A stretch of 64,000 bases of DNA, from IMG/VR virus record IMGVR_UViG_3300021091_000023; one strand, 5' to 3'. This DNA is from an uncultured virus (IMG/VR IMGVR_UViG_3300021091_000023). Its lineage: Duplodnaviria > Heunggongvirae > Uroviricota > Caudoviricetes. Under the pieces are notes generated by a model. It saw only the letters and a list, made by a program, of their open reading frames with translations. It was not told where the DNA came from and did no database searches. The translations under genes and the position numbers were made by a program. This document shows positions 794 to 50,600 of the stretch, one piece after another. Positions within the stretch are counted from its first letter, which is position 1. Each line of letters opens with the position of its first letter.

Positions 794-1521
794 TATTTTA
801 ATTCTTTTAATTTTTTTATAAATTCTATCAAAACATTTACATCTTTTTCACAATACTCCGAAATTTCTTGTAACCTATTATCATTCCAATACGCTTCGTG
901 TACCATACCACCATTTATTTCTCCGTCTTTAGGTGTTGGTATATCTAAGGTTGCACAAACTAAATCTAATGATCCAATTACAGAATAAGCTCCGTACTGC
1001 CAAATTTCTTTTGTGTCAATTGCTTTTACTTCCCAAGGTTTAGTATCATATGAAGGAAGAATTTTAGATGGTTTAATACCGTTAATTATCATTCTTTTTG
1101 CCATCATAGGTATGTCAAAGTTTTTAAGATTGTGACCACAAAGATAAAAATCTAAGTTATGACATCTATCAAGAAGGTTTCTAACTTGTATTAATAATTC
1201 TTTTTCGTCATCACCTGAAAATGTTTGTTTTTTTATTTCACCATTTTCCATAACAAAAGCCATCGACACACAGACAATTTTTGCAAACTCAGGAACAAGT
1301 GCCGAACGTTTAAAATAAACATCATTCATTTTTTGTAGATCATCTTCCAAACTATCTGTTTCGTAGTTATCTTCAGGAAATCTTTTTAAGAACCAATCAA
1401 AGTATTTAACAAATTGTTCTGCTATTTTTGGGTTACTCTCTTGACATGATGACCAATCTTTACAAAGACCAACCGTCTCTATGTCCAAGAATAAAATTTT
1501 TGTAATAGGTATGTTTATCAT
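793..1521 (-). CDS. PolB-related DEDD 3'-5' exonuclease
   Basis: ExoI FLDIET, ExoII GHNLKNFDIP, ExoIII YCEKDV. Confidence 0.85.
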   Translation of the reverse strand: MINIPITKILFLDIETVGLCKDWSSCQESNPKIAEQFVKYFDWFLKRFPEDNYETDSLEDDLQKMNDVYFKRSALVPEFAKIVCVSMAFVMENGEIKKQTFSGDDEKELLIQVRNLLDRCHNLDFYLCGHNLKNFDIPMMAKRMIINGIKPSKILPSYDTKPWEVKAIDTKEIWQYGAYSVIGSLDLVCATLDIPTPKDGEINGGMVHEAYWNDNRLQEISEYCEKDVNVLIEFIKKLKELK

Positions 1522-2768
1522 TTTATTAAGGATTTATATAATTGTGCACGGTCAGCCGTGACTTTATTTAAGTCGTATGTGTCTTTAACTGTTTCATATA
1601 ATCTTTGTCCTAAATCATAAGCCCAATTAGGGTTATCAATTAATTTTTTCATATACTTAGACCAATCCCCATTTCTTACCTCATCAACTAAAAGAGCATT
1701 ACCATCAACAAAATTACCATTTTGTAATGAATGTTTCAAGTCGATAGTATACGGACCAACATTTGATGCAATAATTGTCTTTTTATAGAAACCTGCCTCA
1801 ATTACTTTCAATTGTGATTTAACTCTGTTAAAGATATGGTTTTTAATTGGCGCTAATGACACATCAAACCATTTGTAATTACCTGCATAACTTGTTACAG
1901 GTTTTGTCCAAACACGATTGTAAAAAGGTAAAACATCCGAATTATAATCTTCTTCTTTAAATTTCATTAAAAACTCTTTGTGTTTATCATCAACCATTCT
2001 ATAATTGTCTGTGAAAATTTCTTCATAACGAGCCCAAACCGTTTCTTCAGGTTTAATTGGTCTTTGTTTTTGTTCCCCTGTTTCTTTATTAATTTCAGTA
2101 ACGGTACCTCTAATATCAAACCCACAAAGATACATACTAAATTGATCTTTATATGGTTTAAGTTTATTTATTGTTCCATCTAATAATTTTAAATCATGTA
2201 AGTGTGATGACCCACCTAACCATCCAAAACGTAATTTATCTGATTTTAAAGTTTCTTGTTGAAACTGAGGTTCATTTGGGTTAATGGCGTTTGGTAACAC
2301 ATAAACATTTTTATTAAGTTTTGAAATCTCTGTTGCAAATATTGATGTTGTTGTCGTTACATGTTTTGCAACTTTAAGGTTTGCCATTATTTTTTGATGT
2401 AATTTGTTTTGCACAACTAATTGATGTACAGGATGTTCTTTTGTTGGTAACCAATAATCATCTAAATCCATTATAGTTATAATTCCCATATCGTTGAGAC
2501 GTTGAATAAGAATTGGTGCTTGATTATAGTCTTGACCTATAGTTCTATGAAAATGAACAATATCGTATTGCTTCCAATAATTCATATCATTAATTTTCGT
2601 GTCGTAGTCAATGTCTACATGGAAATCTTCTCCATGATTATTTTGTAACATAACGTGGGGGTCCACACTTCTAAATTTACCTTAACCAACTCCGGTGCGA
2701 TCGCTAGGGACTACTAACACCCTAATTTTTCTGCGAACGTCCGGAGTATATTTACTCTCTTGTGTCAT
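1518..2768 (-). CDS. GT-B (GT4-like) glycosyltransferase with an in-frame TAA at 2684-2682
   Basis: The ORF track calls 1518..2666. The same frame is open back to ATG 2768 apart from one stop: MTQESKYTPDVRRKIRVLVVPSDRTGVG*GKFRSVDPH. Motifs DLDDYW, VLPNA, GWLGGSSH and KSQLKVIEAG...IIASNVGPY. Confidence 0.85.
2689..2747 (-). promoter_or_regulatory. Extended mRNA stem-loop just 5' of the GGU-UAA-GGU site (candidate recoding signal)
   Basis: ACUCCGG-ACGUUCGC-AGAAAAAU-UAGGG-UGUUAGUAGU-CCCUA-GCGAUCGCA-CCGGAGU has nested complementary arms and is much GC-richer than its flanks. Confidence 0.6.
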
Positions 2769-3113
2769 ATTTTTTTATAATTTGTTTTATAAGTTTTGGA
2801 TTTTCTTTTAGATGTGGTTCCCAAACTACTTCCAAATTATAACCATTTTTTATAATTAAGTCAATCTTGTCCTTATCATTATCCCATAATTCTTGTGCTG
2901 TTTTTTGTTTTACCTGATGAAAATAATCTGATTTATATTTTTTGGATTACAATGCCAGTAATCTCCATTATATTCAATTATTAAATTTAATTTAGGTATG
3001 TATATGTCACATATTTTAGTATCTATTTTTAATGAGTGTTTTACATCATAACCTATTTTTTTTATTTCTAAAACTATATCTTTTTCTTTTTTTGATCTTA
3101 CAACAGATTTTAT
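2752..3113 (-). pseudogene. Decayed Vsr/DUF559-like (EDxHD-type) homing endonuclease
   Basis: Manual translation KSVVRSKKEKDIVLEIKKIGY...CDIYIPKLNLIIEYNGDYWHCNPK, then a 1-nt frameshift in the A-run at 2938-2943, then YKSDYFHQ...LWDNDKDKIDLIIKNGYNLEVVWE...YDTRE*. There is no start codon. Confidence 0.75.
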
Positions 3114-3730
3114 TTTTCTAATTTTTTTATTTTTGTTACTTTTCCGATAAACAAATGCTGACCGACTTTGAATTGTATTGTTTCATTTGTGTTTTGTGTT
3201 GATTCAACAATCATTCCAGCATCTTTAAACTCTTCTCTAACAACATCTCTCACAGTGTCTCTAACAACATCTCTAATTATATTTTTAATTTCAGACATGT
3301 TTATATTAGATGATGTTTGTGTTTCTGTAATTTTCTGTTTTGGTATTTGTTTATTAGGTATTTCTGATGTTTTTTCTTTTTTCATTAATCTTGTTGCCCC
3401 CTCGATAACCTCATTTGATAGAACAGTGCCGCCACCCATTGAACTTGGTTGTACTATTGGTTGCTCAATCATTAATCTTTTTATCTCATCAGGTAATTTT
3501 GAATTCATTATTCTTTCCCGTTCTAAGGGTTGTGAAGGATCGTGGTAAGTTTTGGGTGATGAATTTTCTGTTAAAAATTCTTCAGGTAAATTATAAGTCG
3601 CATTGAACGGTTGAAACTCCTCAATTGATGATGTCATCGGTCTTGAGTCACCCCTTCTAATTTCACCATGTTTTTCCATTATTTTTTTTGATACTGCCAA
3701 TCTTTGCATCAAATCTTGTTCATTTGTCAT
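3110..3730 (-). CDS. Hypothetical protein
   Basis: 206-aa ORF in a tightly packed minus-strand operon. Confidence 0.7.
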   Translation of the reverse strand: MTNEQDLMQRLAVSKKIMEKHGEIRRGDSRPMTSSIEEFQPFNATYNLPEEFLTENSSPKTYHDPSQPLERERIMNSKLPDEIKRLMIEQPIVQPSSMGGGTVLSNEVIEGATRLMKKEKTSEIPNKQIPKQKITETQTSSNINMSEIKNIIRDVVRDTVRDVVREEFKDAGMIVESTQNTNETIQFKVGQHLFIGKVTKIKKLEK

Positions 3731-3731
3731 A

Positions 3732-4133
3732 TTATGTTAAATTATCAACGTTATCGAATTTCGCATTTATTAAAACTCTCTCCATGGACCTATCACCATT
3801 AGGGTTATAATTAGGCCTCATGTCAATAAAATTATCCATTGTTGGTTGGTATGTAAATATTTTATCTAATCTAAATAGCCTCCAACCTGGTAAAAAGTTT
3901 CCTTTATTTTTTGCACTCCAAGAAGATCCCTCGGATTCCCAAGCCCTAAGAACTAAATTTCCTTTTTTACTGTAACCTAAACACAAAGGTTCAATTGTTC
4001 TATAACCCTTACCACCATTATCATTTCCATCGTAGTAAATAACAATTATCTTTTTTTTCTTAATAGAGTCTTGAACATCACCCAAAGATGCCGCTTCAGT
4101 AACTAATTTTTTTAAACTATCTAGTAGTCTCAT
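3732..4133 (-). CDS. Stand-alone WYL-like domain protein
   Basis: RTIEPLCLG...LRAWE...WRLFRLDKI pattern; no HTH domain. Confidence 0.7.
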   Translation of the reverse strand: MRLLDSLKKLVTEAASLGDVQDSIKKKKIIVIYYDGNDNGGKGYRTIEPLCLGYSKKGNLVLRAWESEGSSWSAKNKGNFLPGWRLFRLDKIFTYQPTMDNFIDMRPNYNPNGDRSMERVLINAKFDNVDNLT

Positions 4134-15525: not shown

Positions 15526-18390
15526 TCACCTCTTATGAGAAATCATATTTAACACTTCTTCAATAGCAGATGCGTCTTCCATAAGACCATCACCCATCAC
15601 AGTAGATATTATTTTTTTCTTTCTATTAAGGATATCATATATAACACCTTCTATTGTGTTTTCAAAAAGTGGGTAGTAAACTGATGTTGAATTTTTTTGA
15701 CCAATTCTATGTGATCTGTCTTCTGCTTGTGCGTGTTCTGCAGGCACAAACGATAAGTCATTCATAATAACGGCCTCCGCTGAGGTTAAAGTAATACCAA
15801 CACCTGCAGCCTTTAAGTTCCCAACGAAAACTTTAATCTTGTCGTTTTCTTGAAAATCGTCCACCGCCTTTTGACGATGAGGTTTTGAACATGAACCATC
15901 TAAATAAACCGCTTGTTTTCCAAAATGTTCATATATTGTTTTTAAAGTGTCGGTGAAGTTTGTAAATATGATTACTTTTTTTCCTTGCTCTATAATGTTT
16001 TCTGCTAACTCAATAGTGTTTTTTACTTTTTCTTCAGCAATCACTTTTCTAACTTTCATTAGTTTTCCAAACTGAATTGTTAAAGATGATGACTCTTCTG
16101 AGTTGTTATCATACCAATTAAAATATTCACCCATAAGTTCTTCATAGTCTTTAGATTTTAATCTTAAATAAACGGGTGTTATAATTTTATCAGGTAAATC
16201 TAAAACATCTTCTTTTAATCTTCTTAAAATATGTGTTTGAGTTCTTTCTCTTAATTCATCTAAATTTGATGCTCCCGTTACATTCCAAACTTTTCTTTTT
16301 CCAACACTAAATTGGAATCCATTACAATATCTTCTTGCGTAAGCCATCCAATTTGCAGCAACAGGACTTTCAACTAAACTTAAAAGATTATAATAATTCA
16401 TTGGTCTTGATGTCATTGGAGTCCCTGTCAATAACCAAACTCTTTCAACTTTACCACATAAATTATTTACAATCTTTGTTCTTTGTGCTTGTGGATTCGA
16501 TATCATATGTGCTTCATCCATAATAACCAAATCAAAATTTGAATTTAAAATTGTGGATTCTTCTTTCTTTTTTGGGTCGTGAAAGTTTTTTAATATGTCA
16601 TAGTTAATTATAACAAAATCAGATTCACTTGAAAATTTTTTACCTTCTGCAATATATACGGTTCTATCTGAATAATTTTCAATTTCACGTTGCCAATTTA
16701 TTTTTAAAGATGCCGGACATATAATTAAAATCTTTTTAGCCCCGGTTTCAAGTGCAGATATAATTGTTGAGGTTGTATTATGGGTTACAATACAATGTTC
16801 TGTGACGTATAATTTATCTGGTGAATCAACAGAAATACAAACACTATCTTCAAAACCAACTTTTTCAATATTTTTAATATATCTACCAGTTGGGTATTTT
16901 GTTGGTTCAACATACCTTTCGGCCTTTCGTTTTAATCTAAATGGGTTCATACCCTTCGGTAATTTAATATTAACCCTATATACTAACTTACCTTTCTTTT
17001 TTTCACCATTATGTGTATATGTTGGGATACGAGTTTTGACTCTAGCAATACCACCTAATGTTTGAACAATCTCAACAACATCATCACATAGTTGTTTTGA
17101 TACAGTACAAAATTCAGTCCCTAAAAACTTCCCACTTCCATTAAACATACAATGTCCATCAGTATCCATTAATCCTTGTAGAATTGCTAACCTATTTTCA
17201 ATTGATGAATATTTGTATATTTCTGGAATAAATTTAGTTTGAGACCGCGTATGTTCAATACCTAAATCATACAATGAAGTACCAACATTAATACCCCCAC
17301 CCCTTTGATTAATCCTTGTTTTATGTTCATTCAATGGAAATGACTCAAACATATCGTCATAATCATCTTTATGTACCGAAAATCTAATGTTTTTTTGTCT
17401 GAACGAACCGTCACCTAATCCAAGACCTAATAAATAAGAATCTATCGGAAGAATATCATCCCGTTCAAATTGAATTGGATCAACGATTGGAATTTGCCAT
17501 TTATTGTTACCGTTCGATGATTTATAATAAGTTTCAATTTCATATTCCCTAGCTTTATTGTAGTCATTACCTTTAACTTTAATTTTACCACCCTCAAACA
17601 TTTGTTTGGTTGATAATACTATGGTTTTTTTTCGTCTTTCGTTTTTTCTATTTTTACCATAATTTGGTGATGATACAGACCATAAATGATATCCGTCTGT
17701 TTTTATTTTAACACCATCATTAAAGGTGATTTCATAAATGTCCTGTTCAGGTTGGGGGTAAACACCTGTAACTTTATATGTTGCACCATCGCTACCGATT
17801 ATTTCATCACCGACTAAAGTATTTCCAATTTTTTTAGTCCCATAAGGTGTGTAGATAATTGTCGACTTCAATAGACCTTTCCCCAATCCCATATCGTCAG
17901 CTAAAATAAACTTTTTGTTTCTAACAAGTTTTTCAATAGCCTCTTTTTGATGAACCATCGGTGCCCTGTGATCGTATTTTGAATATTCAATCACAACATT
18001 TTTAACTTCATTATCTTTTATAAGTGCTGTTTTTGGAATCCAAAAATCATGTAAAGTTTCACCACTAAATATTTTACCCCAAATGTGATATGATTTATCT
18101 TTTTCAACTAATAACTTTTCAACGTATATTTCTGACGGTTCCTTCGTATACATTTTATCTTCCATCATTTTTTTTCCAAAGTATGAATCGAGTTTTACCC
18201 ATTTTTTTGCAACCTTTGGTGTTCGTCCGTGAAAGTTAATTATGTATTCTGCTTGAGATCTTGTTGGTGTAAATGATTTACTATTTTGTTTTTTGTGTTT
18301 TAATCCTAAGATATAGTTATTTAATCCTACATAATCATCTAACATTTGAAGGGCTCTTGTTTCGAGAGTTTTTGAAATTAATTCTTCCAT
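15526..18390 (-). CDS. SNF2-family (HARP/SMARCAL1-like) helicase containing an intein
   Basis: LADDMGLGK[intein]TT, CPASLKINW, DEAH, LTGTP, GVGITLT, QAEDRSHRIGQ. Probable start is MEELISK at 18390 (track start 18459). Confidence 0.9.
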   Translation of the reverse strand: MEELISKTLETRALQMLDDYVGLNNYILGLKHKKQNSKSFTPTRSQAEYIINFHGRTPKVAKKWVKLDSYFGKKMMEDKMYTKEPSEIYVEKLLVEKDKSYHIWGKIFSGETLHDFWIPKTALIKDNEVKNVVIEYSKYDHRAPMVHQKEAIEKLVRNKKFILADDMGLGKGLLKSTIIYTPYGTKKIGNTLVGDEIIGSDGATYKVTGVYPQPEQDIYEITFNDGVKIKTDGYHLWSVSSPNYGKNRKNERRKKTIVLSTKQMFEGGKIKVKGNDYNKAREYEIETYYKSSNGNNKWQIPIVDPIQFERDDILPIDSYLLGLGLGDGSFRQKNIRFSVHKDDYDDMFESFPLNEHKTRINQRGGGINVGTSLYDLGIEHTRSQTKFIPEIYKYSSIENRLAILQGLMDTDGHCMFNGSGKFLGTEFCTVSKQLCDDVVEIVQTLGGIARVKTRIPTYTHNGEKKKGKLVYRVNIKLPKGMNPFRLKRKAERYVEPTKYPTGRYIKNIEKVGFEDSVCISVDSPDKLYVTEHCIVTHNTTSTIISALETGAKKILIICPASLKINWQREIENYSDRTVYIAEGKKFSSESDFVIINYDILKNFHDPKKKEESTILNSNFDLVIMDEAHMISNPQAQRTKIVNNLCGKVERVWLLTGTPMTSRPMNYYNLLSLVESPVAANWMAYARRYCNGFQFSVGKRKVWNVTGASNLDELRERTQTHILRRLKEDVLDLPDKIITPVYLRLKSKDYEELMGEYFNWYDNNSEESSSLTIQFGKLMKVRKVIAEEKVKNTIELAENIIEQGKKVIIFTNFTDTLKTIYEHFGKQAVYLDGSCSKPHRQKAVDDFQENDKIKVFVGNLKAAGVGITLTSAEAVIMNDLSFVPAEHAQAEDRSHRIGQKNSTSVYYPLFENTIEGVIYDILNRKKKIISTVMGDGLMEDASAIEEVLNMISHKR
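16777..17877 (-). mobile_element. Class 3-type intein (367 aa) with a LAGLIDADG endonuclease, inserted in Walker A
   Basis: Removing it restores DDMGLGKTT. It starts with Gly and ends VTHN/T. LAGLIDADG motifs LLGLGLGDG and LQGLMDTDG; HLW, VCISV and THN give the WCT triplet. Confidence 0.88.
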
Positions 18391-18486
18391 TATATTATAA
18401 ATAAAAATAGTAAATAATATAAAAAAAACAACTTTTTTTTTTAATGATATATTTATCAAATGAATTAAACTTGTAAAAATTAAAAA

Positions 18487-47642: not shown

Positions 47643-50600
47643 ATGAATATTTCGCAAAAAATATTAAGTGACATCACTGTCTTTATGAAATACGCTAAGT
47701 TTCAACCAAAATTAAATAGAAGAGAGACATGGGAAGAGTTGGTGACACGTAACAAAGAAATGCACCAAAGAAAATACCCTCACATTAAAGATGAGATAGA
47801 AGAGGTATATAAAATGGTGTATGACAAAAAAGTTTTACCATCCATGAGGTCATTACAATTTGGTGGAAAACCAATTGAGATTTCACCCAACAGAATCTAC
47901 AATTGTGCATACATGCCAATAGATCATGTAGACGCATTTTCTGAAACAATGTTTTTACTTTTAGGTGGAACAGGAGTTGGATACTCGGTTCAAAAACACC
48001 ACGTCGAAAAACTACCCGAAATAAAAAAACCAAACCCTGAAAGAACAAGACGTTATCTAATTGGTGACTCTATTGAAGGATGGGCAGACGCCATTAAAGT
48101 ATTAATGGAATCATATTTAGGTTATAAGTCATCAACACCTGTATTTGATTTTTCAGATATTAGACAAAAAGGTGCGATGCTTGTAACATCAGGAGGTAAA
48201 GCTCCAGGACCCCAACCATTAAAAGATTGTATTCATCAAATTACAAAAGTTTTGGATAACAAAAAAGATGGTGAAAGATTCAAACCTATCGAAACACATG
48301 ACATCATTTGTCATATTGCTGATGCAGTACTTGCAGGTGGTATCAGACGAGCGGCACTTATTTCATTATTTTCGGCTGACGATGAAGAAATGATTTCTTG
48401 TAAGTCAGGAAATTGGTGGGAACAAAACGCACAAAGAGGTAGAGCAAATAACTCAGCGGTACTTCTTCGTCACAAAATCACAAAAGAATTCTTTATGGAT
48501 CTTTGGAAACGTATTGAATTATCAGGAGCAGGAGAACCAGGAATTTATCTATCTAACGATAAAGATTGGGGGACTAACCCATCATTAAGAGCCGGTACAA
48601 AAGTATTAACAACCGATGGTATTTTTCCAATTGAAGAGCTTGAAGGTAAAAACTTTAAAGTTAAGAATTTAAACGGTGTTATTTCTGATGCTCGTTGTTG
48701 GTTATCAGGTCAAAATAAACAACTTTGGAAATTAAAATTAGAAGATGGTACTGAATATTATGCAACACCAGAACACGAATGGCCGGTTTGGGATGGTGAA
48801 AAGTATGTTAAAGTTAAAACACCTGAATTAACAAATGGTGATAGATTACCAATTTTAAGAGAAGAAAAATTATTTGATGGTGATTTGGGAACACATAACG
48901 ATGGTTTTCTTTGCGGTTGGATTATTGGTGATGGTTGGGCATCAAATAGAAAAGATTATACCGAATATGGTATGGTTGTTTCCGATGACGACGACGAGTC
49001 CAATATTTCTGAAACGCTAGTAAATACAATAAAAGATAATGTCCCAACCTTTTCTGGTAATTTTAAAAGAAGATTTAAGAAAACTTTTAATACTGAAGAA
49101 GAAGAAATGCAAATTACATTGGTTGAAACAAAAACTAAAGAAATTAGTATTAACAATAAATCCGTATATGATTATCTATCAAAATTTGGTTCGTTAATAA
49201 AAAGTGAAGGGTTACCAAAAACAGTTTGGGTTAATGGTAGTGAAGAATTTAGAAAAGGTATTGTTGATGCTTTATTTAGTTCTGACGGACATATCGCAAA
49301 AACACAAAAAAGATTAACATTTACTACAAAACATAAACAATTGGCTGAAGATGTTTCAGAACTATTAGGTTTCTATGGTATTAAAACCAAAATAAAAACA
49401 TCGACACAAAGTTTAGAAGGGTATGATACAGAATACACAAGATATGATTTGAGAATTAGTGAAACAACATCAATAAAACAATTTAGAAATATTTTTAAAT
49501 TAACAAACAAAAGAAAACAAGAAGTTTTAGATAGTTATGAATTTAGATATAATATTTTTGATGACAAACAAATTAAAGTTGAATCTGTTGAATTAACTGA
49601 TCTTTATGAAGATGTTTGGGATATATCGGTGTATGATGAAACACATTGTTTTCAGATATCAAAAGTTGTTACAGGTAATTGTTGCGAAATCGCACTACGA
49701 CCATACCAATTCTGTAACCTATGTGAGGTAAATGCTTCAGATATTGAATCACAAGAAGATTTTGATAAAAGAGTTAAAGCAGCATCATTCATTGGTACTT
49801 TACAAGCTGGTTATACTGACTTCCATTATTTGAGAGATATTTGGAAAAGAACAACCGAAAAAGACGCACTTATCGGTGTCGGTATGACAGGTATTGGTTC
49901 AGGTGTTGTGTTAGGTTATGATATGAAGAGAGCGGCCAAAATGGTTAAAGAAGAAAACGAAAGAGTTGCGAATTTGATTAACATTAATAAATCAGCAAGA
50001 ACAACAACGGTTAAACCATCAGGTACCTCATCATTAGTATTAGGTACATCATCAGGAATTCATGCATGGCATAATGATTACTACCTAAGAAGAATTCGTG
50101 TAGGAAAAAATGAATCAATTTATTCTTATTTAGCAATCAATCATCCTGAATTAATCGAAGACGAATACTTTAGACCACACGATACTGCGGTTATTACAAT
50201 ACCACAAAGAGCACCTGAAGGGTCTATTGTAAGACATGAATCAGTATTTCAAATGTTAGAAAGAGTTAAAAAAGTTTCACAAGAATGGATTAAACCTGGT
50301 CACAGAAACGGACAAAATACTCACAACGTTTCAGCTACAGTTTCAATCAAAGAAGATGAGTGGGAATTAGTTGGTGATTGGATGTGGAATAATAGAGATT
50401 TCTATAACGGACTTTCAGTATTACCATACAACGGAGGAACATATACTCAAGCGCCATTTGAAGATTGTACAAAAGAAGATTTTGAAAGATTAGTTAAATC
50501 ATTAACAGATGTTGATCTTACAAAAGTTATTGAGTTACAAGATAATACAGATCTTCGTGGTGAGGCCGCTTGTGCTGGAGGTGCTTGTGAAATTGTATAA
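47643..50600 (+). CDS. nrdJ: Class II (B12-dependent) ribonucleotide reductase containing an intein
   Basis: PSMRSLQ, YNCA, GTGVG, GGIRRAA, TNP[intein]CCEI, CNL, TTVKPSGT, C-terminal CAGGAC. Confidence 0.92.
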   Translation: MNISQKILSDITVFMKYAKFQPKLNRRETWEELVTRNKEMHQRKYPHIKDEIEEVYKMVYDKKVLPSMRSLQFGGKPIEISPNRIYNCAYMPIDHVDAFSETMFLLLGGTGVGYSVQKHHVEKLPEIKKPNPERTRRYLIGDSIEGWADAIKVLMESYLGYKSSTPVFDFSDIRQKGAMLVTSGGKAPGPQPLKDCIHQITKVLDNKKDGERFKPIETHDIICHIADAVLAGGIRRAALISLFSADDEEMISCKSGNWWEQNAQRGRANNSAVLLRHKITKEFFMDLWKRIELSGAGEPGIYLSNDKDWGTNPSLRAGTKVLTTDGIFPIEELEGKNFKVKNLNGVISDARCWLSGQNKQLWKLKLEDGTEYYATPEHEWPVWDGEKYVKVKTPELTNGDRLPILREEKLFDGDLGTHNDGFLCGWIIGDGWASNRKDYTEYGMVVSDDDDESNISETLVNTIKDNVPTFSGNFKRRFKKTFNTEEEEMQITLVETKTKEISINNKSVYDYLSKFGSLIKSEGLPKTVWVNGSEEFRKGIVDALFSSDGHIAKTQKRLTFTTKHKQLAEDVSELLGFYGIKTKIKTSTQSLEGYDTEYTRYDLRISETTSIKQFRNIFKLTNKRKQEVLDSYEFRYNIFDDKQIKVESVELTDLYEDVWDISVYDETHCFQISKVVTGNCCEIALRPYQFCNLCEVNASDIESQEDFDKRVKAASFIGTLQAGYTDFHYLRDIWKRTTEKDALIGVGMTGIGSGVVLGYDMKRAAKMVKEENERVANLININKSARTTTVKPSGTSSLVLGTSSGIHAWHNDYYLRRIRVGKNESIYSYLAINHPELIEDEYFRPHDTAVITIPQRAPEGSIVRHESVFQMLERVKKVSQEWIKPGHRNGQNTHNVSATVSIKEDEWELVGDWMWNNRDFYNGLSVLPYNGGTYTQAPFEDCTKEDFERLVKSLTDVDLTKVIELQDNTDLRGEAACAGGACEIV
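48582..49679 (+). mobile_element. Intein (366 aa) with a LAGLIDADG endonuclease in nrdJ
   Basis: Starts SLRAGTKV, block B ATPEHEW, GWIIGDG and DALFSSDG, ends VTGN/C. Removing it restores GTNPCCEI. Confidence 0.92.

What the first reader, a model, noticed from the sequence alone, without database searches (positions are those of the whole stretch)
2679..3113. Decayed homing endonuclease abutting the interrupted gene: parallel to the T4 mobA + gene 60 bypass cassette
Seen: an uncalled, start-less, frameshifted Vsr/DUF559-like nuclease (IIEYNGDYWH...VVWE) overlaps the glycosyltransferase start and ends about 70 nt from the 6-nt insertion. Established: in T4, the free-standing mobA endonuclease and the gene 60 coding gap were described as one mobile cassette, with the gap protecting the cut site. 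Inference: this may be an independent version with a different nuclease family and host gene and a much smaller gap that confers immunity and is removed at translation.
Basis: partly seen in the sequence, partly recalled or inferred. Interest (0 to 1): 0.85.

Follow-up and report, generated by a model that had tools for sequence, protein, structure and literature searches.

The report
Ribosome stop-hop in phage glycosyltransferase
A sugar-transferase gene of a large uncultured phage is broken by a stop codon squeezed between two matching codons, left by a selfish DNA-cutting gene that is dead in this copy, and related phages indicate that ribosomes hop over the break, a much smaller natural counterpart of the phage T4 gene 60 bypass.

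Summary
Observation confirmed. The window holds the last 121 codons of a NUMOD3/Vsr-like endonuclease: start lost, one frameshift, overlapping the glycosyltransferase start by 17 nt, ending 67 nt before GGT-TAA-GGT.

Relatives show a mobile cassette. 62 non-redundant junctions interrupt the same codon with 5–14 extra nt, in all three frames. All have a 5' hairpin ending at the first codon; it covaries and is absent from uninterrupted alleles. The downstream frame is open in 152 of 152 loci. The codon after the gap tracks the one before it (Gly/Gly 51, Ser/Ser-type 9, mixed 2), as tRNA re-pairing predicts.

Gap and nuclease co-occur: 10 of 10 gapped versus 3 of 70 ungapped loci in a blind set. 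Empty and full allele pairs exist.

Best reading: programmed ribosomal hop driven by one hairpin (about 0.85), untested at the bench. Immunity by the gap is only inferred (about 0.55), because gap-less nucleases exist. The cassette works like T4 MobA/gene 60 but is not a member. No paper on it was found. This scan noted the same family earlier on other DNA (e1-5375126, e1-5369304).

The parts
3110..3730 (-). Conserved upstream gene (206 aa, no Pfam or PHROG hit). Its end is fused by deletion to the nuclease interior; the terminator seen here in relatives is lost.
2940..3116 (-). Endonuclease remnant, piece 1 (residues 185-242 of intact homologue L009; holds the conserved E, D, E and H of the Vsr-like core); no start codon
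2938..2943 (-). A6 run with 1-nt loss (frameshift); relative L035 has A7 and stays in frame
2752..2937 (-). Endonuclease remnant, piece 2 (residues 245-305, VVWE), stop TAA at 2754-2752
2836..2864 (-). Sigma-70-like promoter match TTGACT-17-TATAAT inside the nuclease 3' end, 67 nt before the exon-1 ATG; same place in 57 of 88 gapped alleles. May partly reflect protein coding; function inferred only.
2685..2768 (-). Glycosyltransferase ORF1 (28 codons): about 12-codon cassette-borne N-terminal extension plus strand beta-1 and the start of the beta1-alpha1 loop
2689..2747 (-). Long mRNA hairpin whose 3' arm ends one base before the take-off codon; 5' arm encoded by the extension
2685..2687 (-). 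Predicted take-off codon GGT (Gly28)
2682..2684 (-). In-frame stop TAA, the whole coding gap in this allele
2679..2681 (-). Predicted landing codon GGT; decoding would resume at AAA 2678-2676
1518..2681 (-). Glycosyltransferase ORF2 (387 codons with the landing codon), GT-B fold, GT4-like; predicted joined product 414 aa

Best explanation
The locus is the decayed copy of a mobile homing cassette in ~300-kb T4-like aquatic phages. The intact cassette runs from just after the upstream gene's terminator to about 25-30 nt past the gap. It carries a free-standing HTH/Zn-finger/NUMOD3/Vsr-like endonuclease, a replacement 5' end for the glycosyltransferase with a ~12-codon extension, and a stop-led gap of 2-11 nt between two matching codons. 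The ribosome translates 26-29 codons and pauses with peptidyl-tRNA (Gly, or Ser in one clade) on the take-off codon and a stop in the A site. The mRNA leaving the ribosome zips into a 25-38 kcal/mol hairpin whose lower stem includes the last 10 or so bases still inside the ribosome, which pulls the message through. The tRNA re-pairs at the next matching triplet and decoding resumes, so here 9 nt give one Gly. SHOWN by sequence comparison: the cassette, its linkage and mobility, the conserved hairpin, translation of and selection on both ORFs, and codon tracking. INFERRED: the hop itself, the hairpin as motor, the tRNA identity, and that the gap protects the cut site (about 0.55 on its own). 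In this window the nuclease is dead, while hairpin, gap and gene are kept.
For: (1) 202 loci (several are repeats of one contig) give 62 non-redundant junctions at the same codon with inserts of 5-14 nt, 24 of 62 not multiples of 3. (2) First bases of take-off and landing codons: G/G 51, A/A 9, mixed 2, Fisher p=5e-9 (not phylogenetically independent). Three Ser alleles land on a codon overlapping the stop (+5 hops). (3) All 52 Gly take-offs are GGT or GGC although the search pattern allowed any third base; GGC is 40 of 1249 Gly codons in window ORFs but about 24 of 52 take-offs; spacers hold 2 G in 84 nt. (4) Hairpin z between -2.8 and -8.3 in 49 of 49 gapped alleles; 3 of 43 ungapped reach z<-2, and the energy ranges do not overlap. 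The blind set repeats this: 8 gapped at -28 or lower, 69 ungapped at -16.8 or higher. (5) With the 5' arm anchored on invariant bases only, three synonymous positions keep Watson-Crick pairs in 39, 44 and 37 of 46 alleles against shuffled means 24.0, 35.1 and 13.3, 0 of 5000 shuffles each; clade alignment A2 covariation 0 of 500. (6) ORF2 is at least 370 aa in 152 of 152 loci with enough flank; median dN/dS 0.094 gapped versus 0.090 ungapped. ORF1 keeps Leu by all six codons and Ser by both codon boxes in 49 of 49. (7) The break separates beta-1 from the rest of a GT-B fold, and no restart codon is conserved: 55 of 85 ORF2 starts lack ATG/GTG/TTG in 12 codons. (8) Linkage and mobility. (9) The driver role of pairing by mRNA exiting the ribosome is the current T4 model (PMC5009743; 10.1101/2024.12.09.627546).
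Against: No RNA, ribosome or protein data. 11 of 62 junctions have an A at the landing third base (GGA, AGA), and 2 mismatch at the first base, whereas T4-type pairs are always wobble-compatible; this needs two-out-of-three P-site pairing. The T4 helpers are missing: nascent-peptide motif, take-off stem, mini-SD and 3' stem. The upper tail of dN/dS is higher for gapped pairs (95th percentile 0.42 versus 0.16). The stop and the GV[G/S] context were demanded by the DNA patterns; only the 10 plus 8 blind cases are unbiased, and one of those 8 is the query. For immunity: intact nucleases occur without a gap (L039/L040, L354, L379), and 7 of 71 gapped alleles have no nuclease trace.
Confidence: 0.85

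Rival explanations
1. The gap is removed from the RNA, not by the ribosome. The hairpin marks a micro-intron that a phage or host endonuclease plus RNA ligase excises, or RNA polymerase skips it.
For: A long conserved hairpin ends exactly at the break. Several cut registers restore the frame for every variant. These phages encode RNA ligases: Rnl1-like in the complete gapped genome G004, Rnl2-like in G006 and G007.
Against: Excision does not require the codon after the gap to match the one before it, yet it does, and both switch from Gly to Ser together. It does not require an in-frame stop either (18 of 18 blind cases have one). 5-6 nt is too short for a bulge-helix-bulge or group I intron (recalled knowledge). 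No register has the U-exon/G-end rule of group I introns. G004 has no RtcB, tRNA splicing endonuclease or group I intron match. Rfam gave nothing at gathering score.
Confidence: 0.06
2. Stop-codon read-through (for 6-, 9- and 12-nt inserts), or two separately made pieces that assemble, gives the enzyme.
For: 38 of 62 junctions, the window's included, are in frame. Split phage enzymes with added tails are known for MobA and MobE insertions. The window has a GTG five codons and an ATG ten codons into ORF2.
Against: 24 of 62 junctions change frame. No restart codon is conserved. ORF2 is conserved from the landing codon on. TAA and TGA are ordinary stops here (23 and 7 of 34 ORFs checked), and no suppressor tRNA was called in the tRNA regions fetched from G004 and G005, though two G005 genes had no assigned anticodon. 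Read-through would add two residues to an invariant active-site loop.
Confidence: 0.06
3. The glycosyltransferase is simply inactivated by the selfish element and carried as a pseudogene.
For: The gene is probably not essential, and the nuclease remnant beside it is decaying.
Against: No second lesion in 152 of 152 ORF2 copies; purifying selection equal to that of intact alleles; covarying hairpin; the gap persists after the nuclease is lost.
Confidence: 0.03

Closest known systems
Phage T4 MobA / gene 60 element and its homologues (Manning and Atkins, bioRxiv 10.1101/2022.08.31.505936; Bonocora 2011 as cited there)
   Same: Free-standing endonuclease plus an element-encoded N-terminal extension overlapping it out of frame, a replaced homologous stretch, matched Gly take-off and landing codons, a stop right after take-off, an A/U-rich gap free of early landing sites, and stepwise decay of the nuclease while the gap stays.
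   Different: Host gene is a GT-B glycosyltransferase, not topoisomerase, and it is not split into two genes. Gap is 2-11 nt between the codons, against 50 nt in T4 (shortest reported 20 nt). ORF1 is 26-29 aa against about 46, with no conserved Tyr or KKYK. There is no take-off stem, mini-SD or 3' barrier. One long 5' hairpin abuts the take-off codon and is universal here, whereas the T4 5' stem is not conserved between clades. Nuclease is NUMOD3/Vsr-like (Vsr also replaced MobA in one T4-type clade).
Synthetic 'stop-hops' (+5, +6) in E. coli (Weiss 1987, seen only as described and cited in PMC5009743 and 10.1101/2024.12.09.627546)
   Same: [quoted passage not shown]
   Different: Those were low-level and unprogrammed. 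The 2016 review states that no natural in-frame stop-hop was known. Here the hop is natural, conserved and coupled to a hairpin.
EDxHD / Vsr-like homing endonucleases (I-Bth0305I, PMC3239194)
   Same: N-terminal NUMOD-type DNA-binding region and C-terminal Vsr-like catalytic domain (Foldseek top hit 3r3p; VIA Z 10.2, rmsd 3.3, 93 residues aligned).
   Different: NUMOD3 plus a four-cysteine zinc finger and HTH rather than NUMOD2 repeats; free-standing rather than in a group I intron or split intein; the window copy is a pseudogene.
Magnusiomyces mitochondrial byps and Streptomyces phage UUA bypass candidates (passages)
   Same: Short inserts skipped by ribosomes, with tolerance of imperfectly matched codons.
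   Different: Byps are 27-55 nt, use an unused sense codon and relaxed mitochondrial ribosomes; neither kind is tied to a homing endonuclease.

Membership tests
T4 gene 60 / MobA bypass element | [quoted passage not shown] | tested here: met
   GGT/GGT in the window; first two bases match in 60 of 62 junctions
T4 gene 60 / MobA bypass element | Stop (or hungry) codon directly after take-off | tested here: met
   18 of 18 blind gapped cases; TGA 35 and TAA 27 of 62 overall, where the pattern demanded a stop
T4 gene 60 / MobA bypass element | 5' stem-loop forming behind the ribosome | tested here: met
   49 of 49, covarying; analogous in place, no sequence homology claimed
T4 gene 60 / MobA bypass element | Take-off (A-site) stem-loop built from gap sequence | tested here: not met
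   Gap too short; the region folds at z<-2 in only 18 of 60 gapped versus 5 of 46 ungapped alleles
T4 gene 60 / MobA bypass element | Nascent-peptide signal (KKYK, invariant Tyr16) about 30 residues before take-off | tested here: not met
   ORF1 is 26-29 aa with no conserved Tyr in 49 alleles
T4 gene 60 / MobA bypass element | Mini Shine-Dalgarno in the gap and 3' forward barrier stem | tested here: not met
   2 G in 84 spacer bases; downstream z<-2 in 2 of 60
T4 gene 60 / MobA bypass element | Insertion in the topoisomerase large-subunit gene, splitting it, with an HNH MobA | tested here: not met
   GT-B glycosyltransferase and Vsr-like nuclease
T4 gene 60 / MobA bypass element | Element-encoded N-terminal extension overlapping the endonuclease ORF | tested here: met
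   Overlap 8-68 nt in 44 intact cassettes, 17 nt in the window
T4 gene 60 / MobA bypass element | Single protein from two ORFs shown biochemically; gap blocks cutting | not testable with these tools
   No RNA run was listed; needs bench work
EDxHD / Vsr-like homing endonucleases | C-terminal Vsr-like fold | tested here: met
   Model of intact homologue L009: 3r3p Foldseek E 1.9e-3 (rank 1), VIA Z 10.2; Vsr 1cw0 Z 10.4
EDxHD / Vsr-like homing endonucleases | N-terminal NUMOD DNA-binding region | tested here: met
   NUMOD3 above Pfam cut-off in L009 and L039; deleted in the window
EDxHD / Vsr-like homing endonucleases | Catalytic E, D, x, H, D residues | tested here: inconclusive
   E195, D221, E232, H239 and D265 are invariant in 44 intact homologues, but no residue-level alignment to I-Bth0305I was obtained
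EDxHD / Vsr-like homing endonucleases | Site-specific cleavage of the empty allele next to the insertion | not testable with these tools
   Only indirect: allele pair L183/L005 places the exchanged stretch over the gene's 5' end
Self-splicing or enzyme-spliced introns (group I, bulge-helix-bulge) | Intron core or U-exon/G-end junction; splicing endonuclease | tested here: not met
GT-B, GT4-like glycosyltransferases | Two-Rossmann GT-B fold over the full length | tested here: met
   Model of uninterrupted relative L002: VIA Z 27.8 (6kih, rmsd 3.6, 332 aligned), residues 3-403; substrate unknown

The most novel reading that the evidence does not exclude
A single exit-channel hairpin plus matched codons is a complete, portable bypass programme. 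Homing endonucleases use it as a third way, beside introns and inteins, to place an immunity-giving insert inside a conserved active-site motif. These would be the first natural, efficient +5 to +14 stop-hops, with hop distance set by how far the stem reaches (rho 0.66 over 52 junctions, not independent). By this scan's unchecked notes the device may recur in many unrelated phage genes.
Probability: 0.55. Interest if true: 0.9.

Novelty: new variant of a known kind. Interest (0 to 1): 0.8.

Why it matters
Programmed bypassing in bacterial ribosomes rests almost wholly on T4 gene 60 and its homologues, and a 2016 review said natural in-frame stop-hops were unknown. This family gives about 60 natural variants of a minimal system of roughly 90 nt, in all frames and with two tRNA classes. 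It makes the open question of whether pairing of exiting mRNA drives bypassing directly testable without the T4 nascent peptide and A-site stem. It would also be a second, independent case of a homing endonuclease cassette with a translational gap. In practice, gene callers truncate these genes, so such recoding is being missed in phage metagenomes.

Tried and rejected
No whole genome is held for the window. RNAalifold on all 49 junctions gave no structure because the stem register shifts between clades. My hand-written structure for clade alignment A3 was mis-registered and scored weakly (14 and 31 of 500 shuffles), so it was replaced by the anchored test. A pattern for hairpin-without-gap found 0 viral contigs, while its gapped twin matched 82 of 280 held loci; it covers only some clades. 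TCN-type Ser take-offs: 0 viral hits. The cassette pattern in cellular genomes: 0 hits. No cultured close relative: best phage matches were 34% and about 25%. A window-wide scan of 162 stop-plus-matched-codon sites found no second candidate; the next Gly-type site (51181) lies inside an unbroken ORF. Rfam: nothing above gathering score. No tRNA genes in the window. Sequence searches of the PDB missed both folds. Rows dropped: L089 and about 35 pattern hits without a downstream glycosyltransferase were chance matches; L419 likewise; 10 of 119 loci were skipped as partial. One search kept the best 80 of 204. Literature searches that found no report of this system: (open-licence PMC and bioRxiv only). 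bioRxiv supplements were closed; the VSR alignments of Manning and Atkins could bear on whether their clade-11 nuclease is related to this one.

Full report
1. Observation. The window is part of a large T4-like myovirus: PHROG matches to tail sheath, baseplate wedge, DNA polymerase, UvsX, DnaB and terminase. On the minus strand the upstream gene ends at 3110 and runs straight into a nuclease fragment. IIEYNGDYWH is at 2981-2952, a 1-nt loss in an A run at 2943-2938 shifts the frame, VVWE follows, and the stop is at 2754-2752. The pieces are 91% and 84% identical to residues 185-242 and 245-305 of an intact 305-aa protein in L009. About 650 nt, holding the terminator, the start and residues 1-184, are deleted. 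The glycosyltransferase ATG (2768) overlaps the fragment by 17 nt. After 28 codons come GGT TAA GGT and then a 386-codon open frame. L001 (one synonymous difference) and L023 (identical here, perhaps not independent) carry the same lesions, so these are not read errors.

2. The two proteins. The intact nuclease has an HTH, four invariant cysteines, a NUMOD3 motif above the Pfam cut-off and a C-terminal domain whose best Foldseek match is the I-Bth0305I catalytic domain (E 1.9e-3); VIA Z is 10.2 to it and 10.4 to Vsr. This fits the EDxHD family as described in PMC3239194 (passages). The host protein, modelled from uninterrupted relative L002 (pLDDT 89.7), is a full-length GT-B, GT4-like fold (Z 27.8). 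Strand beta-1 is residues 4-9 and helix alpha-1 residues 16-31, so the break lies at the end of the beta1-alpha1 loop, among invariant S11, D12, G15, K18 and R20.

3. Linkage and mobility. Of the best 80 of 204 loci found with the downstream protein alone, 10 are gapped. All 10 have the nuclease (4 intact, 6 remnants, L073 weak), against 3 of 70 ungapped. Two more blind searches gave 77 distinct junctions (10 of 119 loci skipped; one gapped row is the query, and some repeat earlier contigs): 5 of 8 gapped against 3 of 69 ungapped have it. Among 71 non-redundant gapped alleles with enough flank, 40 have an intact nuclease, 24 a remnant and 7 none, the same stepwise decay reported for MobA. On a tree of 115 downstream proteins the gap needs 14 changes, at least 10 forced by well-supported branches (ungapped rows came only). 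L183 (full) and L005 (empty) are nearly identical outside the cassette. They diverge just after the terminator and rejoin within 30 nt after the gap (23 of 30 identical, then 30, 30, 30). This marks the element's ends and shows that it brings its own version of the gene's 5' end.

4. The gap family. Pattern scans and blind searches gave 202 loci, reduced to 62 non-redundant junctions. Inserts are 5 (3), 6 (33), 7 (4), 8 (8), 9 (3), 10 (1), 11 (5), 12 (2), 13 (2) and 14 (1) nt; 24 change the frame. ORF2 reaches at least 370 aa in 152 of 152 loci with enough flank. Median dN/dS is 0.094 (55 gapped pairs) against 0.090 (19 ungapped pairs), with a higher upper tail in gapped pairs. ORF1 always starts with ATG, is 26-29 codons long and keeps Leu by all six codons and Ser by both codon boxes in 49 of 49 alleles. 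No restart codon is conserved. So both halves are translated, under selection, and have to be joined.

5. Codon tracking. Where the residue is Gly, both flanking codons are GGN (51 junctions). Where it is Ser, both are AGN (9). Two are mixed (p=5e-9, related sequences not independent). In three Ser alleles the second codon shares its A with the stop, a +5 hop. All 52 Gly first codons end in a pyrimidine although the pattern allowed any base, and spacers are almost free of G. This is what a retained peptidyl-tRNA needs and what excision would not need. Against it: 11 landings end in A and 2 mismatch at base 1, looser than in T4-type cassettes. Latitude in P-site re-pairing is mentioned there and in the title of Herr 2004 (reference list only). 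The related phages checked encode tRNA-Gly(UCC) only, so a host tRNA-Gly(GCC) is my inference.

6. The signal. Every gapped allele carries an extension of about 10-12 codons whose RNA pairs with the codons just before the break. 49 of 49 fold at z -2.8 to -8.3 (-25 to -38 kcal/mol), against 3 of 43 ungapped below z -2 (-4 to -16); the window stem spans 2747-2689. Anchoring on invariant bases only, three synonymous positions keep Watson-Crick pairs in 39, 44 and 37 of 46 alleles (shuffled 24.0, 35.1, 13.3), and clade alignment A2 shows four pair types at one position. The whole-set consensus fold failed and one clade test was weak. The stem ends from 3 nt before to 3 nt into the take-off site, further for longer gaps (rho 0.66). 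Its lower part must therefore lie inside the ribosome at take-off (inference from ribosome geometry, recalled), which matches the 'driver' model in which pairing of exiting mRNA pulls the message forward (PMC5009743 passages; 10.1101/2024.12.09.627546 part 1 and passages). T4's other signals were looked for and not found.

7. Immunity. In T4 the gap, not the nearby polymorphisms, blocked MobA (citing Bonocora 2011, which I did not read). Here it is inferred only. For it: tight linkage, and an insertion in the most conserved DNA of the gene. Against it: intact relatives precede ungapped, extension-less genes (L039/L040, L354, L379). L039 is 89% identical to L231 in its N-part but 54% in its catalytic part, and the three gap-less catalytic domains group apart from 43 gap-linked ones (89/87, long branches). 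That suits a different specificity but does not prove it. In the window the nuclease is dead, so the gap is now a relic that the phage must still read through. A promoter-like site in the nuclease 3' end (57 of 88 gapped alleles) may explain why remnants keep that end.

8. Rivals. RNA-level excision (0.06) stays open because these phages have RNA ligases and no RNA data were available. Read-through or split assembly (0.06) cannot explain the 24 frame-changing inserts. Pseudogene (0.03) is excluded by the selection signals.

9. Comparison and novelty. It works like the T4 MobA/gene 60 cassette but fails its defining gene, nuclease, take-off stem, peptide signal and mini-SD. Manning and Atkins (parts 1, 3 and 4 of 7 and passages) found such cassettes only in topoisomerase genes, shortest gap 20 nt, with no mention of 'glycosyl'. 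The 2016 review knew no natural in-frame stop-hop. Seven searches found no report of this system. This scan's own notes describe the same family on other DNA (e1-5375126, e1-5369304) and similar cassettes in other genes. They are unchecked; the mention of serine-flanked gaps in e1-5369304 was a lead for the blind searches that found the Ser alleles.

10. Verdict. Real; a new variant of a known kind; interest 0.8. The hop is strongly implied by comparative evidence and untested at the bench.

Noticed in passing
window 2864-2836 (-); 57 of 88 gapped alleles: A TTGACT-17-TATAAT promoter match sits inside the nuclease 3' end at a fixed 67 nt before the glycosyltransferase start and is kept in many remnants; it may be the cassette's promoter for the host gene, or partly a by-product of the coded residues.
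   Followed up: partly
L180 and L212, downstream ORF, about 470 nt after the gap: The same glycosyltransferase carries an intein-like insertion after its GGS motif in some divergent relatives, a second parasite of this gene.
   Followed up: no
L039/L040, L047, L354, L366, L379: A sister lineage of the nuclease sits at the same place without gap or extension; several of these alleles have Thr or Ala instead of Leu/Val just before the PSD motif, a possible immunity by target change.
   Followed up: partly
window 15526-18459 (-): Terminase large subunit with a C-terminal segment matching intein-bearing PHROG profiles (residues about 558-960), probably an intein.
   Followed up: no
window 47643-50600 (+): Ribonucleotide reductase of 985 aa against a 701-position profile, so it probably carries an insertion.
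   Followed up: no
L409/L412, L413/L417, L418: Five-base inserts in which the serine landing codon overlaps the last base of the stop codon.
   Followed up: yes
window 3732-4133 (-): WYL-domain gene two genes upstream of the cassette.
   Followed up: no
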